From: Candidatus Asgardarchaeum abyssi
GTDB lineage: Archaea; Asgardarchaeota; Asgardarchaeia; Asgardarchaeales; Asgardarchaeaceae
Reading direction: 5' to 3'
DNA: 64,000 nt
Assembly (NCBI GenBank): GCA_040225955.1
Contig: JBECUL010000001.1
Span: 1-64,000, forward strand
In this document: positions 13,356 to 26,838 of the stretch, piece by piece
Layout: each line of letters begins with the position of its first letter
Numbering within the stretch: position 1 is the first letter of the stretch
Translations under genes and position numbers: made by a program
Notes under the pieces: model-generated
What the model was told of the DNA's origin: nothing
Databases searched by the model: none
The model's input: the letters and a program-made list of their open reading frames with translations, nothing else

Positions 13356-13883
13356 GTGGTCATAATGAAAATAATCGTTGATTCCATGCTTGGTGATATT
13401 GTTGTTTGGCTAAGGTTAGGAGGAATTGACACTATCTACATAGATTCTAAAGAAAGTGATGCTGAAATATTAAAGTTATTAAACAGAAATACTTTGCTGG
13501 TCTCAGGAGATAAAGAATTAATAAAATGTGCAAAAAGAAGGAATTTCCAAGTACTCCTTATAACTCAAGGGAATACTGCCGAAAAAGTAGCTTTAATTCT
13601 CGCTATGATTGGTATACGAAAATATGAGGTTGGAGAAAATAGTCGGTGTGTCTATTGCAACTCTAAATTGATTAGGATTAAGGATAAGAAGCATTTTGAG
13701 GATTTTGTAAGGTACTACAAGATTGAAAATGTTAAGTATTTTGAAAAAAATGCTCCATACTTTTTCTGTGAGAGATGTAGGAAATTTTACTGGAAAGGCA
13801 GAATGTGGAAAAACATAGAAAAGATGATTAAGGCCATAAATGGTGAACTTAGGAGAATTAGCAAAAAGTGCTCTACAATTTAA
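13356..13883 (+). CDS. Mut7-C RNase (PIN fold + zinc ribbon)
   Basis: IIVDSMLG..VWLRLGGIDT, SGDKEL, RCVYCNSKL, CERCRKFYWKG. Confidence 0.88.
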   Translation: MVIMKIIVDSMLGDIVVWLRLGGIDTIYIDSKESDAEILKLLNRNTLLVSGDKELIKCAKRRNFQVLLITQGNTAEKVALILAMIGIRKYEVGENSRCVYCNSKLIRIKDKKHFEDFVRYYKIENVKYFEKNAPYFFCERCRKFYWKGRMWKNIEKMIKAINGELRRISKKCSTI

Positions 13884-14304
13884 CATTAAATATTTCTTCT
13901 AAGAGTTTTACATACTCCTTATAAACATATTCAGCCTTAGTATATGCCTCGGGTGCATAATCTCTAAAGTACTCGGCATCTATACCTTTTTCAAATCCAT
14001 ATCCCGCTAGGCCTCTAAGCTCCGCCAGCTCGGCTATTATATCACTTATTGATTCAACTTCATCTCTGAACCACTTAGGTATGTCATCTCTTTTAGCAAG
14101 CACCGTAAAAACATCACTGATATCATGACTGCGAGGAAAATCTATAGCCAGTGATATCAAGATGGCTTTTGTTGCATTTTCAACCGCCATTTGTGAGCAG
14201 TAAACTACATCATCCCATCTTTTATCCTCTAGAGCTCTTTTCGCACCTTGTAACCATCTACCAGCTCTCTTAATTCCTGAGATAGCTATATCGATATTTC
14301 TCAA
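13873..14304 (-). CDS. HEPN domain protein
   Basis: SQMAVENATKAIL, FPRSHDI, LRGLAGYG. Confidence 0.88.
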   Translation of the reverse strand: MRNIDIAISGIKRAGRWLQGAKRALEDKRWDDVVYCSQMAVENATKAILISLAIDFPRSHDISDVFTVLAKRDDIPKWFRDEVESISDIIAELAELRGLAGYGFEKGIDAEYFRDYAPEAYTKAEYVYKEYVKLLEEIFNVKL

Positions 14305-15068
14305 AGTTCGATAACCTCCCCTGCCTTTATATCCGCTAAAACCCAGTAATATCCTTTATTTGGAATCTCTATTCTTTTGGCTCCTAAATTTAGTAGTTTC
14401 TGGCGAATTTTTTCCATAGTTTTTGTAAGAAAGTTTTCTTTTTCGTATAATATAATCCCATCAATACAAATATCTATATAAACTCGGTGAAAACGTTTTG
14501 CCTCTTCCTTACTTAAAGGATAATGCTGTATTATTGGAAAATAGCCTTTTGACAAGGCATTCTTGAATTCTTCAGTCTCCTTAAGTATTTTCTTTAATTT
14601 CCTTAGCTCTCTGATTCTTTCCCATACAAGTTTCTTATCCCATTTATCCACAATGATTAATAAGTCGATATCACTGTCCTTATTCCAATCCCCCCTAGCT
14701 ATTGATCCGAAAAGAGCAACTCCTATGAGTTTTTCTCCAAAGTGCTCACACAGAATCTTGCAATATCTCTCTAAAAGACCACTATATATTTTATGAGGAA
14801 TTCTTTCAATGTTTTTTATATGAATTTCTGTCCCTTCGATTATCATATTAAGTTTCTTAAGAAGATCCACGACAATTTTTCCTTTCTCAGTCAGCTTATA
14901 CATACGCTTCTCAGACTTAATGATCTTTCTCGAAATTAGATATCTAAGCTTCCTGCTTAAAGTTCTTGGATTTTCTACAACCTTTAATAGATCAGAAAAT
15001 CTACATTCTCCACTTTTACTTATTCGTTCTAATATTCTTAATATAAATTGATCAATCATCCCGATCAC
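14301..15068 (-). CDS. wHTH-fused minimal nucleotidyltransferase
   Basis: N-terminal wHTH (RFSDL...TLSRKL...YKLTEKG) plus LFGSIARGDWNKDSDIDLLII. Confidence 0.88.
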   Translation of the reverse strand: MIGMIDQFILRILERISKSGECRFSDLLKVVENPRTLSRKLRYLISRKIIKSEKRMYKLTEKGKIVVDLLKKLNMIIEGTEIHIKNIERIPHKIYSGLLERYCKILCEHFGEKLIGVALFGSIARGDWNKDSDIDLLIIVDKWDKKLVWERIRELRKLKKILKETEEFKNALSKGYFPIIQHYPLSKEEAKRFHRVYIDICIDGIILYEKENFLTKTMEKIRQKLLNLGAKRIEIPNKGYYWVLADIKAGEVIEL

Positions 15069-23805: not shown

Positions 23806-26800
23806 TTACCTAGCAAATCCCAGTATTTGAATTGTTGTGCCAAATCCTATTCTTATGGATTGTCCTTCGGATATTTTGTATGGTGTATTTCGAGGAATTC
23901 TCTGGCCGTTAATAAACGTTCCATTGCTGGATCCCTCATCTATCACTATTAATTGCTGACCATCAAACTTTATAAGCAAATGTCTTCTTGACACTGTTGG
24001 ATCAGTAAGTCCAAGATTCTTTGTCATTCCATTTAAGTTAGCTTCAAGCATTCCAGTGGATGAACTTCTGTATATTCTAGTTTCTCCAACTGGGATATCT
24101 AAATCTATGGATTTATTGCCAATAGAGAGTCTTGCTTTAGCAACAACACCAACTGCTTTTACAACAGGAAACGTAACTGTTTGTAGTGCCGGCATTGCTT
24201 GTGATGGTGCTTGTGCAACAGAGACCGGAATTACTTGCTTTAGTTCGGGGAATAATAATACGGCCTTAGATGCGTAGGTTGGTCTCTCTGATGGCTTCTT
24301 TCTGTTAAGTGCAAGTAATATTAAGTATTTTCCGTAAAACTCGTCAAGTATTATAAATGTGCCAAACATTCTTTCCTCTTGTTTGATGAGACCACTACTT
24401 ATTATACGAGCCCAAGCCTCTTTATCGCCCATTATCATATCAGATATCTCTTCTAATGGTATCTCTTTGCTCTCCGACTCGACAAATTTGTCAATAAGCT
24501 TCAATAGCAAATCTCTTGAAAAACCTCTGATTCCAACTCTATTAAATATAGATGCCCCATGAGGATCCGCTATGAAAGCAAGCACTTCGTTGATGTTATT
24601 TATATCGATAAACCTTCCATTTTTGGTATAGAATTCGGAGAGTAAGCGCAAAATGTATGGCTTCTTGGCCAATCTGAAGAGTTCACCAGTAGGAACTGGA
24701 ATCCCATATTTCTCACAAGCGTCCTTAAGTTGCTCATCAGTAAATTCGCTTAGCATTGCAGATGCTTTTACTTCATGATATTCAGTTGTTGAGTAAATTA
24801 TTCTATTCATGGATGGAAGATTGTCCGTAATAGCAGGGTCTGATATCCAATCTATTGTTCTGCAACTCAGCACAATAGCAATGTCTCTACGCCCACCAAG
24901 GGAGATGATATATCTCAAAATTGCAGATCTTTCACTACTAGGGACTTCATCTAAGCCGTCTAAGAATAAAACCACTGGTTTTTTAACTATATCATTCATC
25001 TGAGAGATCACACTGTCCACTCTGAAATAGTCAGTGTTAAATATAGTCTCTAATTGGGATTTAAACCCAAGCCGTAGAGAGATAAAGAACACTGGAAATT
25101 CTTGATCAACAAGCTTATTTGCAAGGTGAGCTAAGAACCATGTTTTTCCTATACCCGCATCAGCAAGTACAAGAAACACATTACTCAAAGATAATGCCTC
25201 TGGATTCTGCATCTCTCTTATGAATTCATCAAAATCTTTTTCCTCATACCTTTCTACGTATAGATCTGGATCATAGTTTATATCGTATCGCGATGAAGTT
25301 TGTGCCATCTGCATTTGAACAACGCTCATCATCCTAATACTTTTTGCATCAAGTTTCTTTGAAAGAGCTGAATAGCTTTCGAGGAATTTTTCATCCAATC
25401 TATTCTTTGAACGTCTCAGTCTTCCTAAAAGGCCTGGTATCTTTGTAGCAATGGTAATCATAGTAGTTGGGCTTACCATAGCTCCGCCACCAGCAACCGT
25501 TCCAGTAGCTACTGTAGCAGCACCTATGCCAGCAAATGCAGGAAGATTTACATTTAGATTACTAATTGAAACCTTTAGGTCATCCGCTTTCTGCTTAAGA
25601 CTATTTGTTATGTTCACTAATTCAGAACTGTCTAGCTCACCACTTTCAATTTTTCGTTTGATTTCCATAACGTAATCCTTATATTCAGCTAATTGCTTTT
25701 TCAAGTCACCACTTACTTTTGAGACGTCTATTCCCTGTTCTTCTAGTACTTTAATTAATCTAGCCTCTACATCAGAAACAATGGCCTCAAATTCGTCAAC
25801 TTTACTCAATAAGCTCTTCGATACTTCACCGAGTTTACCTTTTTCAATGAGCTCAGGTAAATCTTTTTCTAGATCTGCCAAAAACTTGCTGATCTGGTCT
25901 GTTTTATCAGTTAATTTTAATCCAACATCAAAGAGAGAACTGAGATTCGATGGAAGTGATAATTTTTCGGAAAGTAAGGTTGGAAACTTCTTTTCGAATT
26001 CTGATACAAAGTTTTTGAATTCATTAGCATTTTTCGTTAATGTATCTCTGATTACATCCAAGTCTAATGTTTTTGCGCCCTCTTTTGCAAAAATTTGATT
26101 TTGAAGTTCATTTAGCGTCGATTTAAACTCATTCAGTTTTAAATTTATTGATTCCATTTCCTCTGGGCTGAGCAAACCACCATTGGATAATACAGCAACC
26201 ATTTTCTTTTCAAAAATTTCAATGTTCTCATTAAAAGTAGTCAGATATTGTTTAAAATCATTTTGAAAAGCATCAAGCGATAAAACACCAGCAGATGTCA
26301 TTTCACCTAGTTTCTGATCCAACTGAGTAGTTATCCGCTCGAGTGAAGAGATACTCGTTAATAGATCTCCCCTCGCGACAGTAAACGTGTTAAGTATGTC
26401 GCCTATCTGAATTTGTGGAAGTTGAGCTGGAACACCAAGGCCTTTCATTTCTTTGAATAGGTCCTCTAATAGGGATGCTTGCTTCTCTTTTAGCTCATTA
26501 ATCTGTTGCATAGTCGCTGTTATTTGATTATATATGTCTCTAAGTGAGTACTCTACTGCGGAGGATACCAAATGGCTTAGCTCTTTATTCTTCTCCATAA
26601 GCTGTTTCTTGAAATTTTCGAATATTTCATCAACTTGGTCCATCTTGGTTAAAATGCTTTCTGAAACACTGCTTAGAATATTGTCATCAAAGGATAGATC
26701 GAACTTTGATAATCTTTCTCTAAGTAATGTAGAAATAGCCCCAGCTGCTGGAGGAAATACTGTGCCAGCAGCTATAGAAACAACAATGGGCAATACCCGT

Positions 26801-26838
26801 TTCGATATCTTCTTTAATCTCTCTTTCCACCCAACCAT
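23806..26838 (-). CDS. STAND/NACHT-like NTPase with N-terminal helical repeats and hydrophobic segments and a C-terminal FHA domain
   Basis: Walker A ADAGIGKT, Walker B VLFLDGLDE, sensor IVLSCR, KPYILRL; FHA DPTVSRRH...DEGSSNGTFING. Confidence 0.85.
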   Translation of the reverse strand: MVGWKERLKKISKRVLPIVVSIAAGTVFPPAAGAISTLLRERLSKFDLSFDDNILSSVSESILTKMDQVDEIFENFKKQLMEKNKELSHLVSSAVEYSLRDIYNQITATMQQINELKEKQASLLEDLFKEMKGLGVPAQLPQIQIGDILNTFTVARGDLLTSISSLERITTQLDQKLGEMTSAGVLSLDAFQNDFKQYLTTFNENIEIFEKKMVAVLSNGGLLSPEEMESINLKLNEFKSTLNELQNQIFAKEGAKTLDLDVIRDTLTKNANEFKNFVSEFEKKFPTLLSEKLSLPSNLSSLFDVGLKLTDKTDQISKFLADLEKDLPELIEKGKLGEVSKSLLSKVDEFEAIVSDVEARLIKVLEEQGIDVSKVSGDLKKQLAEYKDYVMEIKRKIESGELDSSELVNITNSLKQKADDLKVSISNLNVNLPAFAGIGAATVATGTVAGGGAMVSPTTMITIATKIPGLLGRLRRSKNRLDEKFLESYSALSKKLDAKSIRMMSVVQMQMAQTSSRYDINYDPDLYVERYEEKDFDEFIREMQNPEALSLSNVFLVLADAGIGKTWFLAHLANKLVDQEFPVFFISLRLGFKSQLETIFNTDYFRVDSVISQMNDIVKKPVVLFLDGLDEVPSSERSAILRYIISLGGRRDIAIVLSCRTIDWISDPAITDNLPSMNRIIYSTTEYHEVKASAMLSEFTDEQLKDACEKYGIPVPTGELFRLAKKPYILRLLSEFYTKNGRFIDINNINEVLAFIADPHGASIFNRVGIRGFSRDLLLKLIDKFVESESKEIPLEEISDMIMGDKEAWARIISSGLIKQEERMFGTFIILDEFYGKYLILLALNRKKPSERPTYASKAVLLFPELKQVIPVSVAQAPSQAMPALQTVTFPVVKAVGVVAKARLSIGNKSIDLDIPVGETRIYRSSSTGMLEANLNGMTKNLGLTDPTVSRRHLLIKFDGQQLIVIDEGSSNGTFINGQRIPRNTPYKISEGQSIRIGFGTTIQILGFAR

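What the first reader, a model, noticed from the sequence alone, without database searches (positions are those of the whole stretch)
23806..26838. Archaeal NLR-like protein with FHA in the sensor position and a putative membrane-acting N-terminal effector
Seen in sequence: an N-terminal hydrophobic helix (VLPIVVSIAAGTVFPPAAGAISTLL). About six amphipathic helical repeats follow (e.g. FKQYLTTFNENIEIFEKKMVAVL, LTKNANEFKNFVSEFEKKFPTLL, LTDKTDQISKFLADLEKDLPELI, LLSKVDEFEAIVSDVEARLIKVL). Next come a Gly/Ala hydrophobic segment (LPAFAGIGAATVATGTVAGGGAMV), a NACHT-style NTPase (ADAGIGKT / LFLDGLDE / LSCR), a helical region, an Ala/Pro/Gln linker and an FHA domain (SRRH, SSNGT). Established: STAND immune receptors (NLRs, Avs) run effector-NTPase-sensor, usually with TPR/LRR/WD40 sensors, and FHA domains bind phosphothreonine. 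Inference: a phosphorylation-triggered oligomerising switch whose apolipoprotein-like/hydrophobic N-terminus inserts into or remodels membranes, i.e. a possible kinase-guarding cell-death or membrane system. I know no characterised protein with this architecture. Caveat: the canonical FHA 'GR' appears as 'YR'.
Basis: partly seen in the sequence, partly recalled or inferred. Interest (0 to 1): 0.85.

Follow-up and report, generated by a model that had tools for sequence, protein, structure and literature searches.

The report
Asgard NLR-like switch with FHA sensor
This Asgard-archaeal gene encodes an NLR-type (NACHT-like) ATPase switch that carries a phosphothreonine-reading FHA domain where its relatives carry LRR, HEAT or WD40 repeats, so it is probably set off by a protein kinase; the claimed membrane-attacking head is not shown.

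Summary
It has an N-terminal helical module with an Ala/Gly/Pro-rich hydrophobic segment, eight long repeat helices, a disordered Gly/Ala linker, a NACHT-signature STAND NTPase, a flexible linker and a true FHA domain.

The protein belongs to a patchy Asgard family. The N-module and NTPase stay constant, while the C-terminus is LRR, HEAT, WD40 or FHA. So 'FHA in the sensor position' is supported.

Two divergent FHA-type relatives have a Ser/Thr kinase gene directly beside them; one of these kinases is fused to WD40. The query has no kinase on its 103-kb contig, although its genome has 11 kinase matches and this is its only FHA.

The membrane-effector idea is unproven. The hydrophobic segments are not classical TM helices, the second is a disordered linker, and the N-module matches no known fold or family.

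I read it as a new variant of a known kind: a phosphorylation-gated NLR-like switch.

The scan had already noted this family on other DNA: e1-5485350, e1-548012, e1-5613330, and the same-genome paralog e1-5593498.

The parts
23806..26838 (-). Whole gene, 1010 aa (P0001), including the stop codon
   Evidence: Full-length homologs at 42-57% identity.
26440..26838 (-). Family-private N-terminal module, aa 1-133: a basic N-terminus, a hydrophobic helix-kink-helix and three further helices
   Evidence: Found fused to this NTPase in 41 of the 159 retrieved proteins. Alignment A2: G25 and R100 nearly invariant. AF2 helices 4-24, 29-44, 52-64, 66-83 and 85-133. No fold match.
26722..26796 (-). Ala/Gly/Val/Pro-rich hydrophobic segment, aa 15-39, with the central 'G..FPPAAG' kink
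   Evidence: Kyte-Doolittle 1.7. Approximate insertion free energy +5.6 kcal/mol, against below 0 for true membrane proteins of the window. pLDDT 54-72.
25534..26406 (-). Expansion of eight long (26-39 residue) helices, aa 145-435, with internal repeats. Present only in the closest (Odin-labelled) subgroup.
   Evidence: AF2 secondary structure. Self profile hits. Short forms P0005, P0017 and P0006 lack it.
25465..25533 (-).
   Evidence: pLDDT below 50 at aa 440-458. Approximate insertion energy +4.9.
24229..25443 (-). STAND NTPase module, aa 466-870: lead-in helix, P-loop domain, helical domain and winged helix
   Evidence: Pfam nSTAND_NTPase5, NACHT and NPHP3_N. NCBIfam EruA NACHT E 2e-10. 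Foldseek matches to NLRP2/7, NOD2, NLRC4, CED-4, Apaf-1 and Avs4. pLDDT mostly above 90.
25141..25164 (-). Walker A, aa 559-566 (ADAGIGKT)
   Evidence: G562, G564, K565 and T566 are invariant in 46 homologs.
24946..24975 (-). Walker B with the NACHT signature, aa 622-631 (hhhhh-D-G-L-D-E)
   Evidence: D627 and G628 invariant; D630 and E631 at least 90% conserved. Signature as defined in 10.1101/2022.07.19.500537.
24859..24861 (-). Sensor-1 arginine R660 (in LSCR)
   Evidence: Invariant.
24145..24228 (-). Flexible Ala/Pro/Gln linker, aa 871-898, with nearly invariant P891
   Evidence: pLDDT below 50 at aa 876-896. Alignment A3.
23809..24144 (-). FHA domain, aa 899-1010. Pocket residues R924, S950, H953 and N972; family-specific hairpin at aa 925-941.
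   Evidence: Pfam FHA E 1.1e-15. PDB FHA domains (FhaA, Rv1747, Rad53, GarA) E 2e-7 to 1e-5. Foldseek FhaA and CEP170 FHA, TM 0.64-0.75 normalised by target length. Invariant residues.

Best explanation
The gene encodes a single-chain NLR-like switch of an Asgard-specific NACHT-clade STAND family.

Shown:
- The architecture is N-module, NTPase, FHA.
- The catalytic and phosphothreonine-pocket residues are intact.
- The C-terminal slot is the variable one in the family.

Inferred mechanism:
1. In the resting, ADP-bound state, the C-terminal FHA holds the NTPase closed, as repeat sensors do in other NLRs.
2. A Ser/Thr kinase phosphorylates a threonine on a host protein, a viral protein or the switch itself. 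In two relatives this kinase is encoded next door, once fused to WD40 repeats that could be the real pathogen or stress sensor.
3. The FHA binds that phosphothreonine and autoinhibition is released.
4. ATP binding drives oligomerisation. This clusters the family-private N-terminal modules, which deliver the output.

The output is most likely growth arrest or death of the infected cell. Acting on the membrane is one candidate, unproven.

The 290-residue helical expansion in this subgroup is a lineage-specific spacer or extra interaction surface.
For: NACHT-type STAND:
- Walker A, D-G-h-D-E Walker B and sensor-1 Arg are invariant.
- 32, 25 and 12 of 46 family members hit nSTAND5, NPHP3_N and NACHT respectively.
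- EruA antiphage NACHT E 2e-10.
- Fold matches to NLRs, CED-4, Apaf-1 and Avs4.

Sensor slot:
- The C-termini of homologs are LRR (14), HEAT (9), FHA (7) or WD40 (3) of 46.
- On the NTPase tree the FHA forms are one weakly supported clade (support 80/58) plus one outlier. They sit next to LRR, WD40 and HEAT clades.

FHA competent:
- Above the Pfam cut-off.
- R924, S950 and N972 invariant, H953 nearly so.

Kinase input:
- P0022 has a Pkinase gene 45 nt downstream on the same strand, on three contigs from three samples.
- In genome G104 the FHA-type gene lies 84 nt downstream of a 620-aa kinase-WD40 gene.
- The query's genome has 11 Pkinase matches and no other FHA domain.

Defence-like behaviour:
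- Single gene with no conserved neighbours.
- Patchy distribution: 19 of 301 phylum genomes.
- Window neighbours within 10-17 kb include a DNA methylase, HepT/MNT plus HD-CE, HEPN/NTase, PIN, an AAA_15/21 ATPase and a BrxC/D-like ATPase.
- Relatives lie beside Cas1/Cas2/Cas6 or a CHAT protease.
Against: - No kinase gene lies on the query's 103-kb contig or in the flanks of seven other FHA-type lineages. The link to a kinase therefore rests on two divergent relatives.
- The query itself is below Pfam's curated cut-offs for nSTAND5 and NACHT.
- Its fold matches ORC/Cdc6 as well as it matches NLRs.
- No antiviral activity, oligomerisation, phosphopeptide binding or toxicity has been measured for any family member.
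- The N-module has no recognisable effector fold, and no known effector domain replaces it in relatives.
- The defence context is loose and interleaved with housekeeping genes.
Confidence: 0.55

Rival explanations
1. The switch is not an immune receptor. It is a housekeeping signalling scaffold: a kinase-pathway adaptor that assembles, at the membrane or cytoskeleton, a complex controlling a cell-biological process of Asgard archaea. The FHA acts as an ordinary phospho-dependent docking module.
For: - It is the only FHA domain in a genome with many eukaryote-like kinases.
- The best-studied archaeal FHA protein, ArnA, which appears among the PDB hits, is to my knowledge a regulator of motility and not of defence.
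- Neighbouring genes are mostly housekeeping.
- There is no recognisable killing domain.
Against: - A housekeeping function does not predict a patchy distribution (19 of 301 genomes), paralogs with swapped LRR, HEAT or WD40 ends, or unconserved neighbourhoods.
- The nearest named profiles are antiphage NACHT and Avs proteins.
Confidence: 0.2
2. The FHA is a regulatory latch, not the sensor. It binds a phosphothreonine within the same protein or a neighbouring protomer, as in GarA/OdhI or Chk2-type FHA switches. The signal itself is sensed by the helical-repeat region or the N-module.
For: - A flexible linker lies directly before the FHA, with a Thr four residues before the nearly invariant P891 in four of the five long forms.
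- The long helical expansion is specific to this subgroup and could be a binding surface.
- FHA-mediated cis or trans self-binding is established for GarA/OdhI and Rad53/Chk2 (my knowledge; these proteins appear among the hits).
Against: - The linker Thr is absent from the short FHA forms.
- The helical expansion is missing in most family members. It therefore cannot be the family's general sensor.
- The FHA sits exactly where the variable repeat sensors sit in relatives.
Confidence: 0.15
3. The N-terminal hydrophobic segment is a constitutive membrane tether (a monotopic hairpin). It only localises the switch at the membrane; the output is something else, or is recruited.
For: - A conserved basic stretch is followed by a 25-residue hydrophobic helix-kink-helix with a nearly invariant Gly and a Pro-Pro.
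- In distant members the same motif lies 40-70 residues from the N-terminus, so a free N-terminus is not required.
Against: - Approximate insertion energies are +2 to +8 kcal/mol, against below 0 for real membrane proteins of the window.
- Each hydrophobic arm is only about 10 residues.
- AF2 packs the segment against the helical module, with low to moderate confidence.
Confidence: 0.2

Closest known systems
Bacterial NLR-related NACHT proteins (bNACHT; Kibby et al., read as bioRxiv 10.1101/2022.07.19.500537) and the NCBIfam antiphage NACHT proteins EruA and HyoA
   Same: - Central NACHT-signature NTPase (D-G-h-D-E) with a winged-helix extension.
- N-terminal output domain and C-terminal variable sensor.
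- Single-gene unit.
- FHA, HEAT, LRR and N-terminal helical domains are all listed among NACHT-associated domains in that paper.
   Different: - Only partial, sub-threshold profile matches (EruA E 2e-10 over 145 residues).
- Archaeal (Asgard) family with a private N-terminal module.
- No member has been tested.
- An FHA at the C-terminus has not been characterised functionally in anything I could find.
Avs (antiviral STAND) receptors, e.g. Avs2 and Avs4 (PADLOC and NCBIfam models; PDB 8dgf, 9o4e)
   Same: - Effector, STAND NTPase and sensor layout.
- Fold match of the NTPase module.
- Weak profile hits to Avs2.
- Stand-alone gene with a patchy distribution.
   Different: - Avs sensors are large repeat or helical domains that bind phage proteins directly. 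Here a 110-residue phosphopeptide reader would sense a modification, not a fold.
- The Avs hits are far below the family cut-offs.
HeLo, HELL, MLKL 4HB, plant CC/RPW8 and prokaryotic Bell domains (Dyrka et al., bioRxiv 10.1101/2020.01.06.895854)
   Same: - An N-terminal helical bundle of about 120-140 residues and five helices, beginning with a hydrophobic helix.
- It sits in the effector position of an NLR architecture.
   Different: - No sequence or fold similarity detected.
- The N-terminus is strongly basic. It lacks the acidic residue at position 2-3 that marks those domains.
- No stand-alone copies were found, whereas Bell and HeLo are mostly separate small proteins.
- No amyloid motif was seen.
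FHA phospho-readers of kinase pathways: M. tuberculosis FhaA, Rv1747 and GarA, Rad53 FHA1, Sulfolobus ArnA
   Same: - The FHA fold with the Arg, Ser, His and Asn pocket.
- In two relatives, a kinase gene next door.
   Different: - Fused to a STAND NTPase.
- Gly of the 'GR' motif replaced by Tyr in this subgroup.
- A 13-residue hairpin inserted after the Arg.
Bacterial STAND proteins with N-terminal FHA or kinase domains (Kaur et al. 2021, PMC8195603)
   Same: A phosphorylation-related domain fused to a NACHT or nSTAND NTPase in predicted conflict systems.
   Different: There the FHA is described as displacing the N-terminal adaptor or effector domain. Here it is C-terminal, in the slot of the repeat sensors.

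Membership tests
STAND NTPase, NACHT clade | Walker A GxxxxGK[ST] | tested here: met
   aa 559-566. G562, G564, K565 and T566 are invariant in 46 homologs.
STAND NTPase, NACHT clade | Walker B with the D[GAS]hDE signature (definition quoted from 10.1101/2022.07.19.500537) | tested here: met
   D627-G628-L629-D630-E631. D627 and G628 invariant; D630 and E631 at least 90% conserved.
STAND NTPase, NACHT clade | Profile match above the curated threshold (Pfam NACHT or nSTAND_NTPase5) | tested here: inconclusive
   Query: nSTAND5 26.0 bits against a cut-off of 34; NACHT 20.2 against 26.7. Family: 32 of 46 members hit nSTAND5 (best E 9e-10) and 12 of 46 hit NACHT (best 3e-8).
STAND NTPase, NACHT clade | NTPase, helical domain and winged-helix module resembling solved NLR or AP-ATPase structures | tested here: inconclusive
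   Foldseek E 2e-5 to 3e-4, probability 1.0, to NLRP2/7/14, NOD2, NLRC4, CED-4, Apaf-1, Avs4 and MalT. ORC/Cdc6 matches equally well. The sequence profile against PDB is weak.
STAND NTPase, NACHT clade | Tripartite architecture with a variable C-terminal sensor region | tested here: met
   LRR, HEAT, WD40 or FHA follow a conserved N-module plus NTPase.
FHA domain | Pfam PF00498 above the gathering score | tested here: met
   58.3 bits against a cut-off of 20.7, E 1.1e-15.
FHA domain | Phosphothreonine-pocket residues (Arg of GR, Ser and His of SxxH, Asn of NG) | tested here: met
   R924, S950 and N972 invariant, H953 nearly so. Gly is replaced by Tyr in this subgroup but is Gly in P0022 and P0098.
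FHA domain | Binds phosphothreonine peptides | not testable with these tools
   Needs ITC or peptide arrays with aa 899-1010.
Antiviral STAND / bNACHT defence systems | Protects against viruses when expressed | not testable with these tools
Antiviral STAND / bNACHT defence systems | Enrichment next to known defence genes | tested here: inconclusive
   The window holds a methylase, HepT/MNT, HEPN/NTase, PIN, an AAA_15/21 ATPase and a BrxC/D-like ATPase 3-17 kb away, interleaved with housekeeping genes. Relatives lie beside Cas1/2/6, CHAT or DUF3800. No statistics were done.
HeLo / Bell / MLKL / CC-type membrane-disrupting N-domains | N-terminal hydrophobic helix heading a helical bundle of about five helices | tested here: met
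   AF2 gives five helices in aa 4-133, with a hydrophobic helix-kink-helix at aa 15-39.
HeLo / Bell / MLKL / CC-type membrane-disrupting N-domains | Acidic residue at position 2-3 of the N-terminal helix (signature quoted in 10.1101/2020.01.06.895854) | tested here: not met
   The N-terminus is basic (consensus K..LKK..K) in 37 homologs.
HeLo / Bell / MLKL / CC-type membrane-disrupting N-domains | Sequence or fold similarity to a known member | tested here: inconclusive
   No Pfam hit. Foldseek PDB best E 1.5. VIA-align best Z 6.9, non-specific helical matches. Atlas TM at most 0.47.
HeLo / Bell / MLKL / CC-type membrane-disrupting N-domains | Permeabilises membranes or kills on activation | not testable with these tools
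   Needs toxicity and liposome assays.

The most novel reading that the evidence does not exclude
A two-tier immune relay in Asgard archaea. A WD40-bearing Ser/Thr kinase senses infection and writes a phosphothreonine mark. An NLR-type switch reads the mark with its FHA domain, then oligomerises and kills the cell through a previously unknown N-terminal, membrane-directed death domain. That would be a prokaryotic counterpart of the kinase-to-NLR circuits of plants and animals, in the archaeal lineage closest to eukaryotes.
Probability: 0.2. Interest if true: 0.85.

Novelty: new variant of a known kind. Interest (0 to 1): 0.62.

Why it matters
NLR-type receptors are known to be triggered by direct binding of pathogen molecules or of guarded host proteins through large repeat domains. 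Here the sensor slot of an NLR-like switch holds a small phosphopeptide reader. In relatives, a kinase-WD40 gene sits next door. This suggests that phosphorylation itself can be the trigger.

The family also offers compact two-gene systems in which to test this: P0022 with its kinase, and the G104 kinase-WD40 with its FHA-STAND gene.

Because the family is so far seen in Asgard archaea, it bears on how kinase signalling and NLR-type immunity became connected before or around the origin of eukaryotes. It also defines a family-private N-terminal domain whose output activity is unknown.

Tried and rejected
1. Fold of the N-module: Foldseek against PDB, VIA-align wide, ESM Atlas by shape and by language-model features. 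Nothing specific was found, so the fold remains unassigned.

2. Complex prediction with four copies of the N-module: no verdict. It counts neither for nor against self-association.

3. Classical TM helix test. Both hydrophobic segments scored positive, while membrane proteins of the same window scored negative. I therefore rejected 'TM anchor' as the default reading.

4. Glycine-zipper periodicity (small-xxx-small-xxx-small) in the N-terminal segments of 36 homologs: 60 observed against 57.8 +/- 7.1 in composition-preserving shuffles. This is no more than composition gives.

5. Stand-alone or differently fused N-modules of 71-408 aa: only a fragment of the same gene was found.

6. Known effector domains in the N-terminal slot of relatives that lack the N-module: none.

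7. Profile of the NTPase against PDB sequences: only weak generic P-loop hits, including Avs2 at E 0.004. The full-length profile was swamped by LRR matches.

8. The genome-contig scan was saturated by the generic NACHT motif and returned only distant bacterial NACHT proteins.

9. PP2C phosphatase in the genome: none found. The genome is 93% complete.

10. I tried to join a kinase fragment (contig C125) with a WD40 fragment (contig C67, 64-67% identical to the WD40 of the G104 kinase) into one partner gene. The contigs do not overlap.

11. Literature: no paper on 'nSTAND5', 'EruA' or 'HyoA' as defence proteins was found in the library.
Full report
**1. The gene**

window:23806-26838 on the minus strand is one open frame of 1010 codons. 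Its first residues align with the starts of homologs, so the start codon is right. Base composition around it is unremarkable for the window, about 32-37% G+C.

**2. Domains found by profile search**
- Pfam gives a significant FHA domain at aa 943-998: E 1.1e-15, 58 bits against a cut-off of 20.7.
- It also gives sub-threshold hits to nSTAND_NTPase5 (E 9e-6), NACHT (6e-4) and NPHP3_N (8e-4) over aa 537-666.
- NCBIfam adds a partial match to the antiphage NACHT protein EruA (E 2e-10, aa 599-742) and weak ones to HyoA and Avs2.
- PADLOC gives only weak Avs2 hits.

**3. The family**
- Searches of two large protein collections found full-length relatives at 42-57% identity with the same architecture. 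One of them is labelled Candidatus Odinarchaeota.
- They also found about fifty further clusters that share the NTPase.
- When I split the query into parts, 41 of the 159 retrieved proteins have both the roughly 130-residue N-terminal module and the NTPase.
- The helical stretch at aa 131-465 is found only in the closest subgroup. Short forms such as P0005 (685 aa) and P0017 (699 aa) go almost directly from the N-module to the NTPase and still end in an FHA.
- In a 46-member alignment the invariant columns are G562, G564, K565 and T566 (Walker A), D627 and G628 (Walker B), R660 (sensor 1) and W567/W664. D630, E631 and P727 are at least 90% conserved.
- D-G-L-D-E is the D[GAS]hDE signature that separates NACHT from other STANDs, according to Kibby et al. 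(10.1101/2022.07.19.500537).

**4. What sits in the C-terminal slot**
- A Pfam scan of the 46 members found LRR in 14, HEAT in 9, FHA in 7 and WD40 or beta-propellers in 3. nSTAND5 was found in 32, NPHP3_N in 25 and NACHT in 12.
- A scan of previously unlabelled tails added further WD40, HEAT and LRR cases.
- On a maximum-likelihood tree of the NTPase domains, the FHA forms make one clade of eight with weak support (80/58), plus one outlier, P0021. They lie beside a clade with LRR and WD40 ends and a well-supported HEAT clade. FHA needs at least two changes on the tree.
- So the FHA occupies the position where the family varies and where NLRs carry their sensors.

**5. The FHA domain itself**
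- Aligning ten family FHA regions shows three invariant residues, R924, S950 and N972, and a nearly invariant H953.
- From established FHA knowledge (Durocher and Jackson 2002, cited in PMC8195603), these are the Arg of 'GR', the Ser and His of 'SxxH' and the Asn of 'NG', which hold the phosphothreonine.
Two relatives, P0022 and P0098, have 'IGR' in the same column, so 'YR' is the canonical position with Gly changed to Tyr.
- A 13-residue insertion follows the Arg. The AF2 model folds it as a beta-hairpin at aa 931-941.
- The nearest solved FHA domains are FhaA, Rv1747, Rad53 FHA1 and GarA/OdhI. Foldseek aligns the model's FHA to FhaA and CEP170 with TM 0.64-0.75, normalised by target length.

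**6. Structure**
- The full-length AF2 model built with the family alignment has mean pLDDT 84.
- The NTPase, helical and winged-helix part is mostly above 90.
- The model shows eight long helices at aa 145-435 (pLDDT 60-90).
- It has two disordered linkers, at aa 440-458 and aa 876-896.
- A self profile comparison of the N-terminal half finds internal repeats at 96-97% probability.
- Foldseek places the NTPase module with NLRP2/7/14, NOD2, NLRC4, CED-4, Apaf-1, Avs4 and MalT, but equally with ORC/Cdc6.
- The fold alone therefore does not separate STAND from its sister clade. The sequence motifs and profiles do.

**7. The N-terminal module**
- Modelled alone with 37 homologs, it is a five-helix unit (pLDDT about 90 for aa 31-100). 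Its first 30 residues are less confident and form a helix-kink-helix.
- The hydrophobic segment at aa 15-39 is conserved as a type: rich in Ala (23%), Gly (12%), Val and Leu, with Pro in the middle and a nearly invariant G25. A basic stretch precedes it.
- An approximate biological hydrophobicity scale gives +2 to +8 kcal/mol across the family. True membrane proteins of the same window have windows below zero. It is not a classical membrane anchor.
- The second 'hydrophobic' stretch (aa 436-458) is a disordered Gly/Ala linker.
- A glycine-zipper spacing is no more frequent than composition predicts.
- Three structure libraries and a language-model search gave no specific relative.
- No stand-alone copies were found.
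- No known effector domain replaces the module in relatives.
- The module resembles Bell, HeLo, MLKL and CC domains in size, helix number, position and a leading hydrophobic helix. It lacks their acidic N-terminal signature.
- The membrane-effector reading thus stays possible but is only an analogy.

**8. Kinases**
- The genome (2.6 Mb, 189 contigs, 93% complete) has 11 Pkinase matches, none on the window's 103-kb contig. It has only one FHA domain, this one. No PP2C was found.
- Among the flanks of FHA-type relatives, most show no kinase.
- P0022 is followed after 45 nt, on the same strand, by a protein kinase gene (Pfam E 3e-33). This arrangement is seen on three contigs, one from each of three samples.
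- In another Asgard genome (G104) the family gene is split over two contigs that overlap by 255 identical bases. Joined, it is N-module, NTPase and FHA.
- 84 nt upstream of it, on the same strand, lies a 620-aa protein with a kinase domain (E 7e-25) and WD40 repeats (E 7e-79).
- Both of these relatives carry the canonical 'IGR' form of the FHA motif. P0022 sits on a long branch at the base of the FHA clade; the G104-type protein (P0098) was not in the tree.
- This gives real but limited support for a kinase input. It also suggests that the kinase's WD40 repeats may be the true sensor.
- An earlier unchecked note of this scan (e1-5613330) described such a locus and led me to look.

**9. Context and distribution**
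- The gene has no conserved neighbours.
- In the window, genes within 3-17 kb include a DNA methylase, HepT/MNT with an HD-CE protein, a HEPN/nucleotidyltransferase pair, a PIN toxin, an AAA_15/AAA_21 ATPase with a small partner and a BrxC/D-like ATPase. Transporters and metabolic genes lie between them.
- Relatives lie next to Cas1/Cas2/Cas6 (P0017), a CHAT protease (P0002) or DUF3800 (P0005).
- The N-module was found in 19 of 301 genomes of the phylum, mostly in one family. The NTPase-to-FHA profile was found in 38 of 400.
- The genome has a paralog on contig C9 that is cut by the contig end.
- All of this fits an accessory, defence-like gene but does not prove it.

**10. Literature**
- Leao et al. 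2024 (PMC11291487) count NLR among Asgard defence systems but do not treat this architecture.
- Kibby et al. list FHA, HEAT, LRR and N-terminal helical domains among NACHT partners.
- Kaur et al. 2021 (PMC8195603) mention FHA as an N-terminal domain of bacterial STANDs.
- The 2026 survey of prokaryotic STANDs (PMC13581612) does not mention FHA in its main text.
- I found no functional study of a C-terminal FHA on an NLR-like protein.

**11. Verdict**
NLR-like with FHA in the sensor slot: yes. Kinase-triggered: plausible, with two linked kinases in relatives. Membrane-acting effector: untested analogy.
- It is a new variant of a known kind. It is of clear interest because it points to phosphorylation as an NLR trigger and offers small two-gene systems in which to test that.

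Noticed in passing
L097:8016-9875 (+) and L097:9959-11461 (+) with L096:3534-4220 (-); genome G104, contigs C168 and C130: A 620-aa Ser/Thr kinase-WD40 gene lies 84 nt upstream of an FHA-type family member. That member's gene is split over two contigs that overlap by 255 identical bases. This pair is probably the best natural system for testing the kinase-to-NLR idea.
   Followed up: partly
L037:127-2022 and L037:2068-2607 (also L038, L039, L045): P0022 is a short FHA-type member with the canonical IGR motif. After 45 nt, on the same strand, it is followed by a protein kinase gene that is cut by the contig end.
   Followed up: partly
G000:C9:53373-55348 (locus L011:1045-3024): A paralog in the same genome has the N-module plus NTPase at 40% identity. 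It runs off the contig end after 660 codons, so its C-terminal domain is unknown. The scan noted it earlier as e1-5593498.
   Followed up: partly
window:33398-35560 (+): An AAA_15/AAA_21 ABC-type ATPase (544 aa) is followed 9 nt later by a 172-aa protein with no Pfam hit.
   Followed up: no
window:35994-37583 (+): A 529-aa P-loop protein has a weak BrxC/BrxD hit (E 3e-5) and a weak NACHT hit. It may be another STAND or ORC-like defence ATPase.
   Followed up: no
window:22189-23535 (+): A 448-aa all-helical protein lies convergent with the NLR-like gene, with only a weak TPR_MalT hit. The same neighbour is present on a metagenome contig whose protein product is 97% identical to the query (L040). 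It is not next to more distant homologs.
   Followed up: partly
window:27174-27785 (-): Two short ORFs sit just upstream of the gene. One (101 aa) has a signal-like start and the other (83 aa) has a beta-helix/NosD hit. They look like pieces of a decayed secreted beta-helix protein.
   Followed up: no
window:24157-24171 (-), aa 887-891: In four of the five long FHA forms, a Thr lies four residues before the nearly invariant P891 of the linker (T-x-x-hydrophobic-P). It could be a self-ligand for the FHA. The short forms lack it.
   Followed up: no
G000:C67:106-735 and G000:C125:4223-4651: A WD40 fragment at a contig start is 64-67% identical to the WD40 of the G104 kinase. A kinase fragment lies at another contig's end. 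They may be one kinase-WD40 gene of this genome, but the contigs do not overlap.
   Followed up: partly
window:8847-11435 (+) and 13873-15068 (-): A HepT/MNT pair is followed by an HD-CE protein, and there is a second HEPN/nucleotidyltransferase pair. The Pfam hits were confirmed here.
   Followed up: partly
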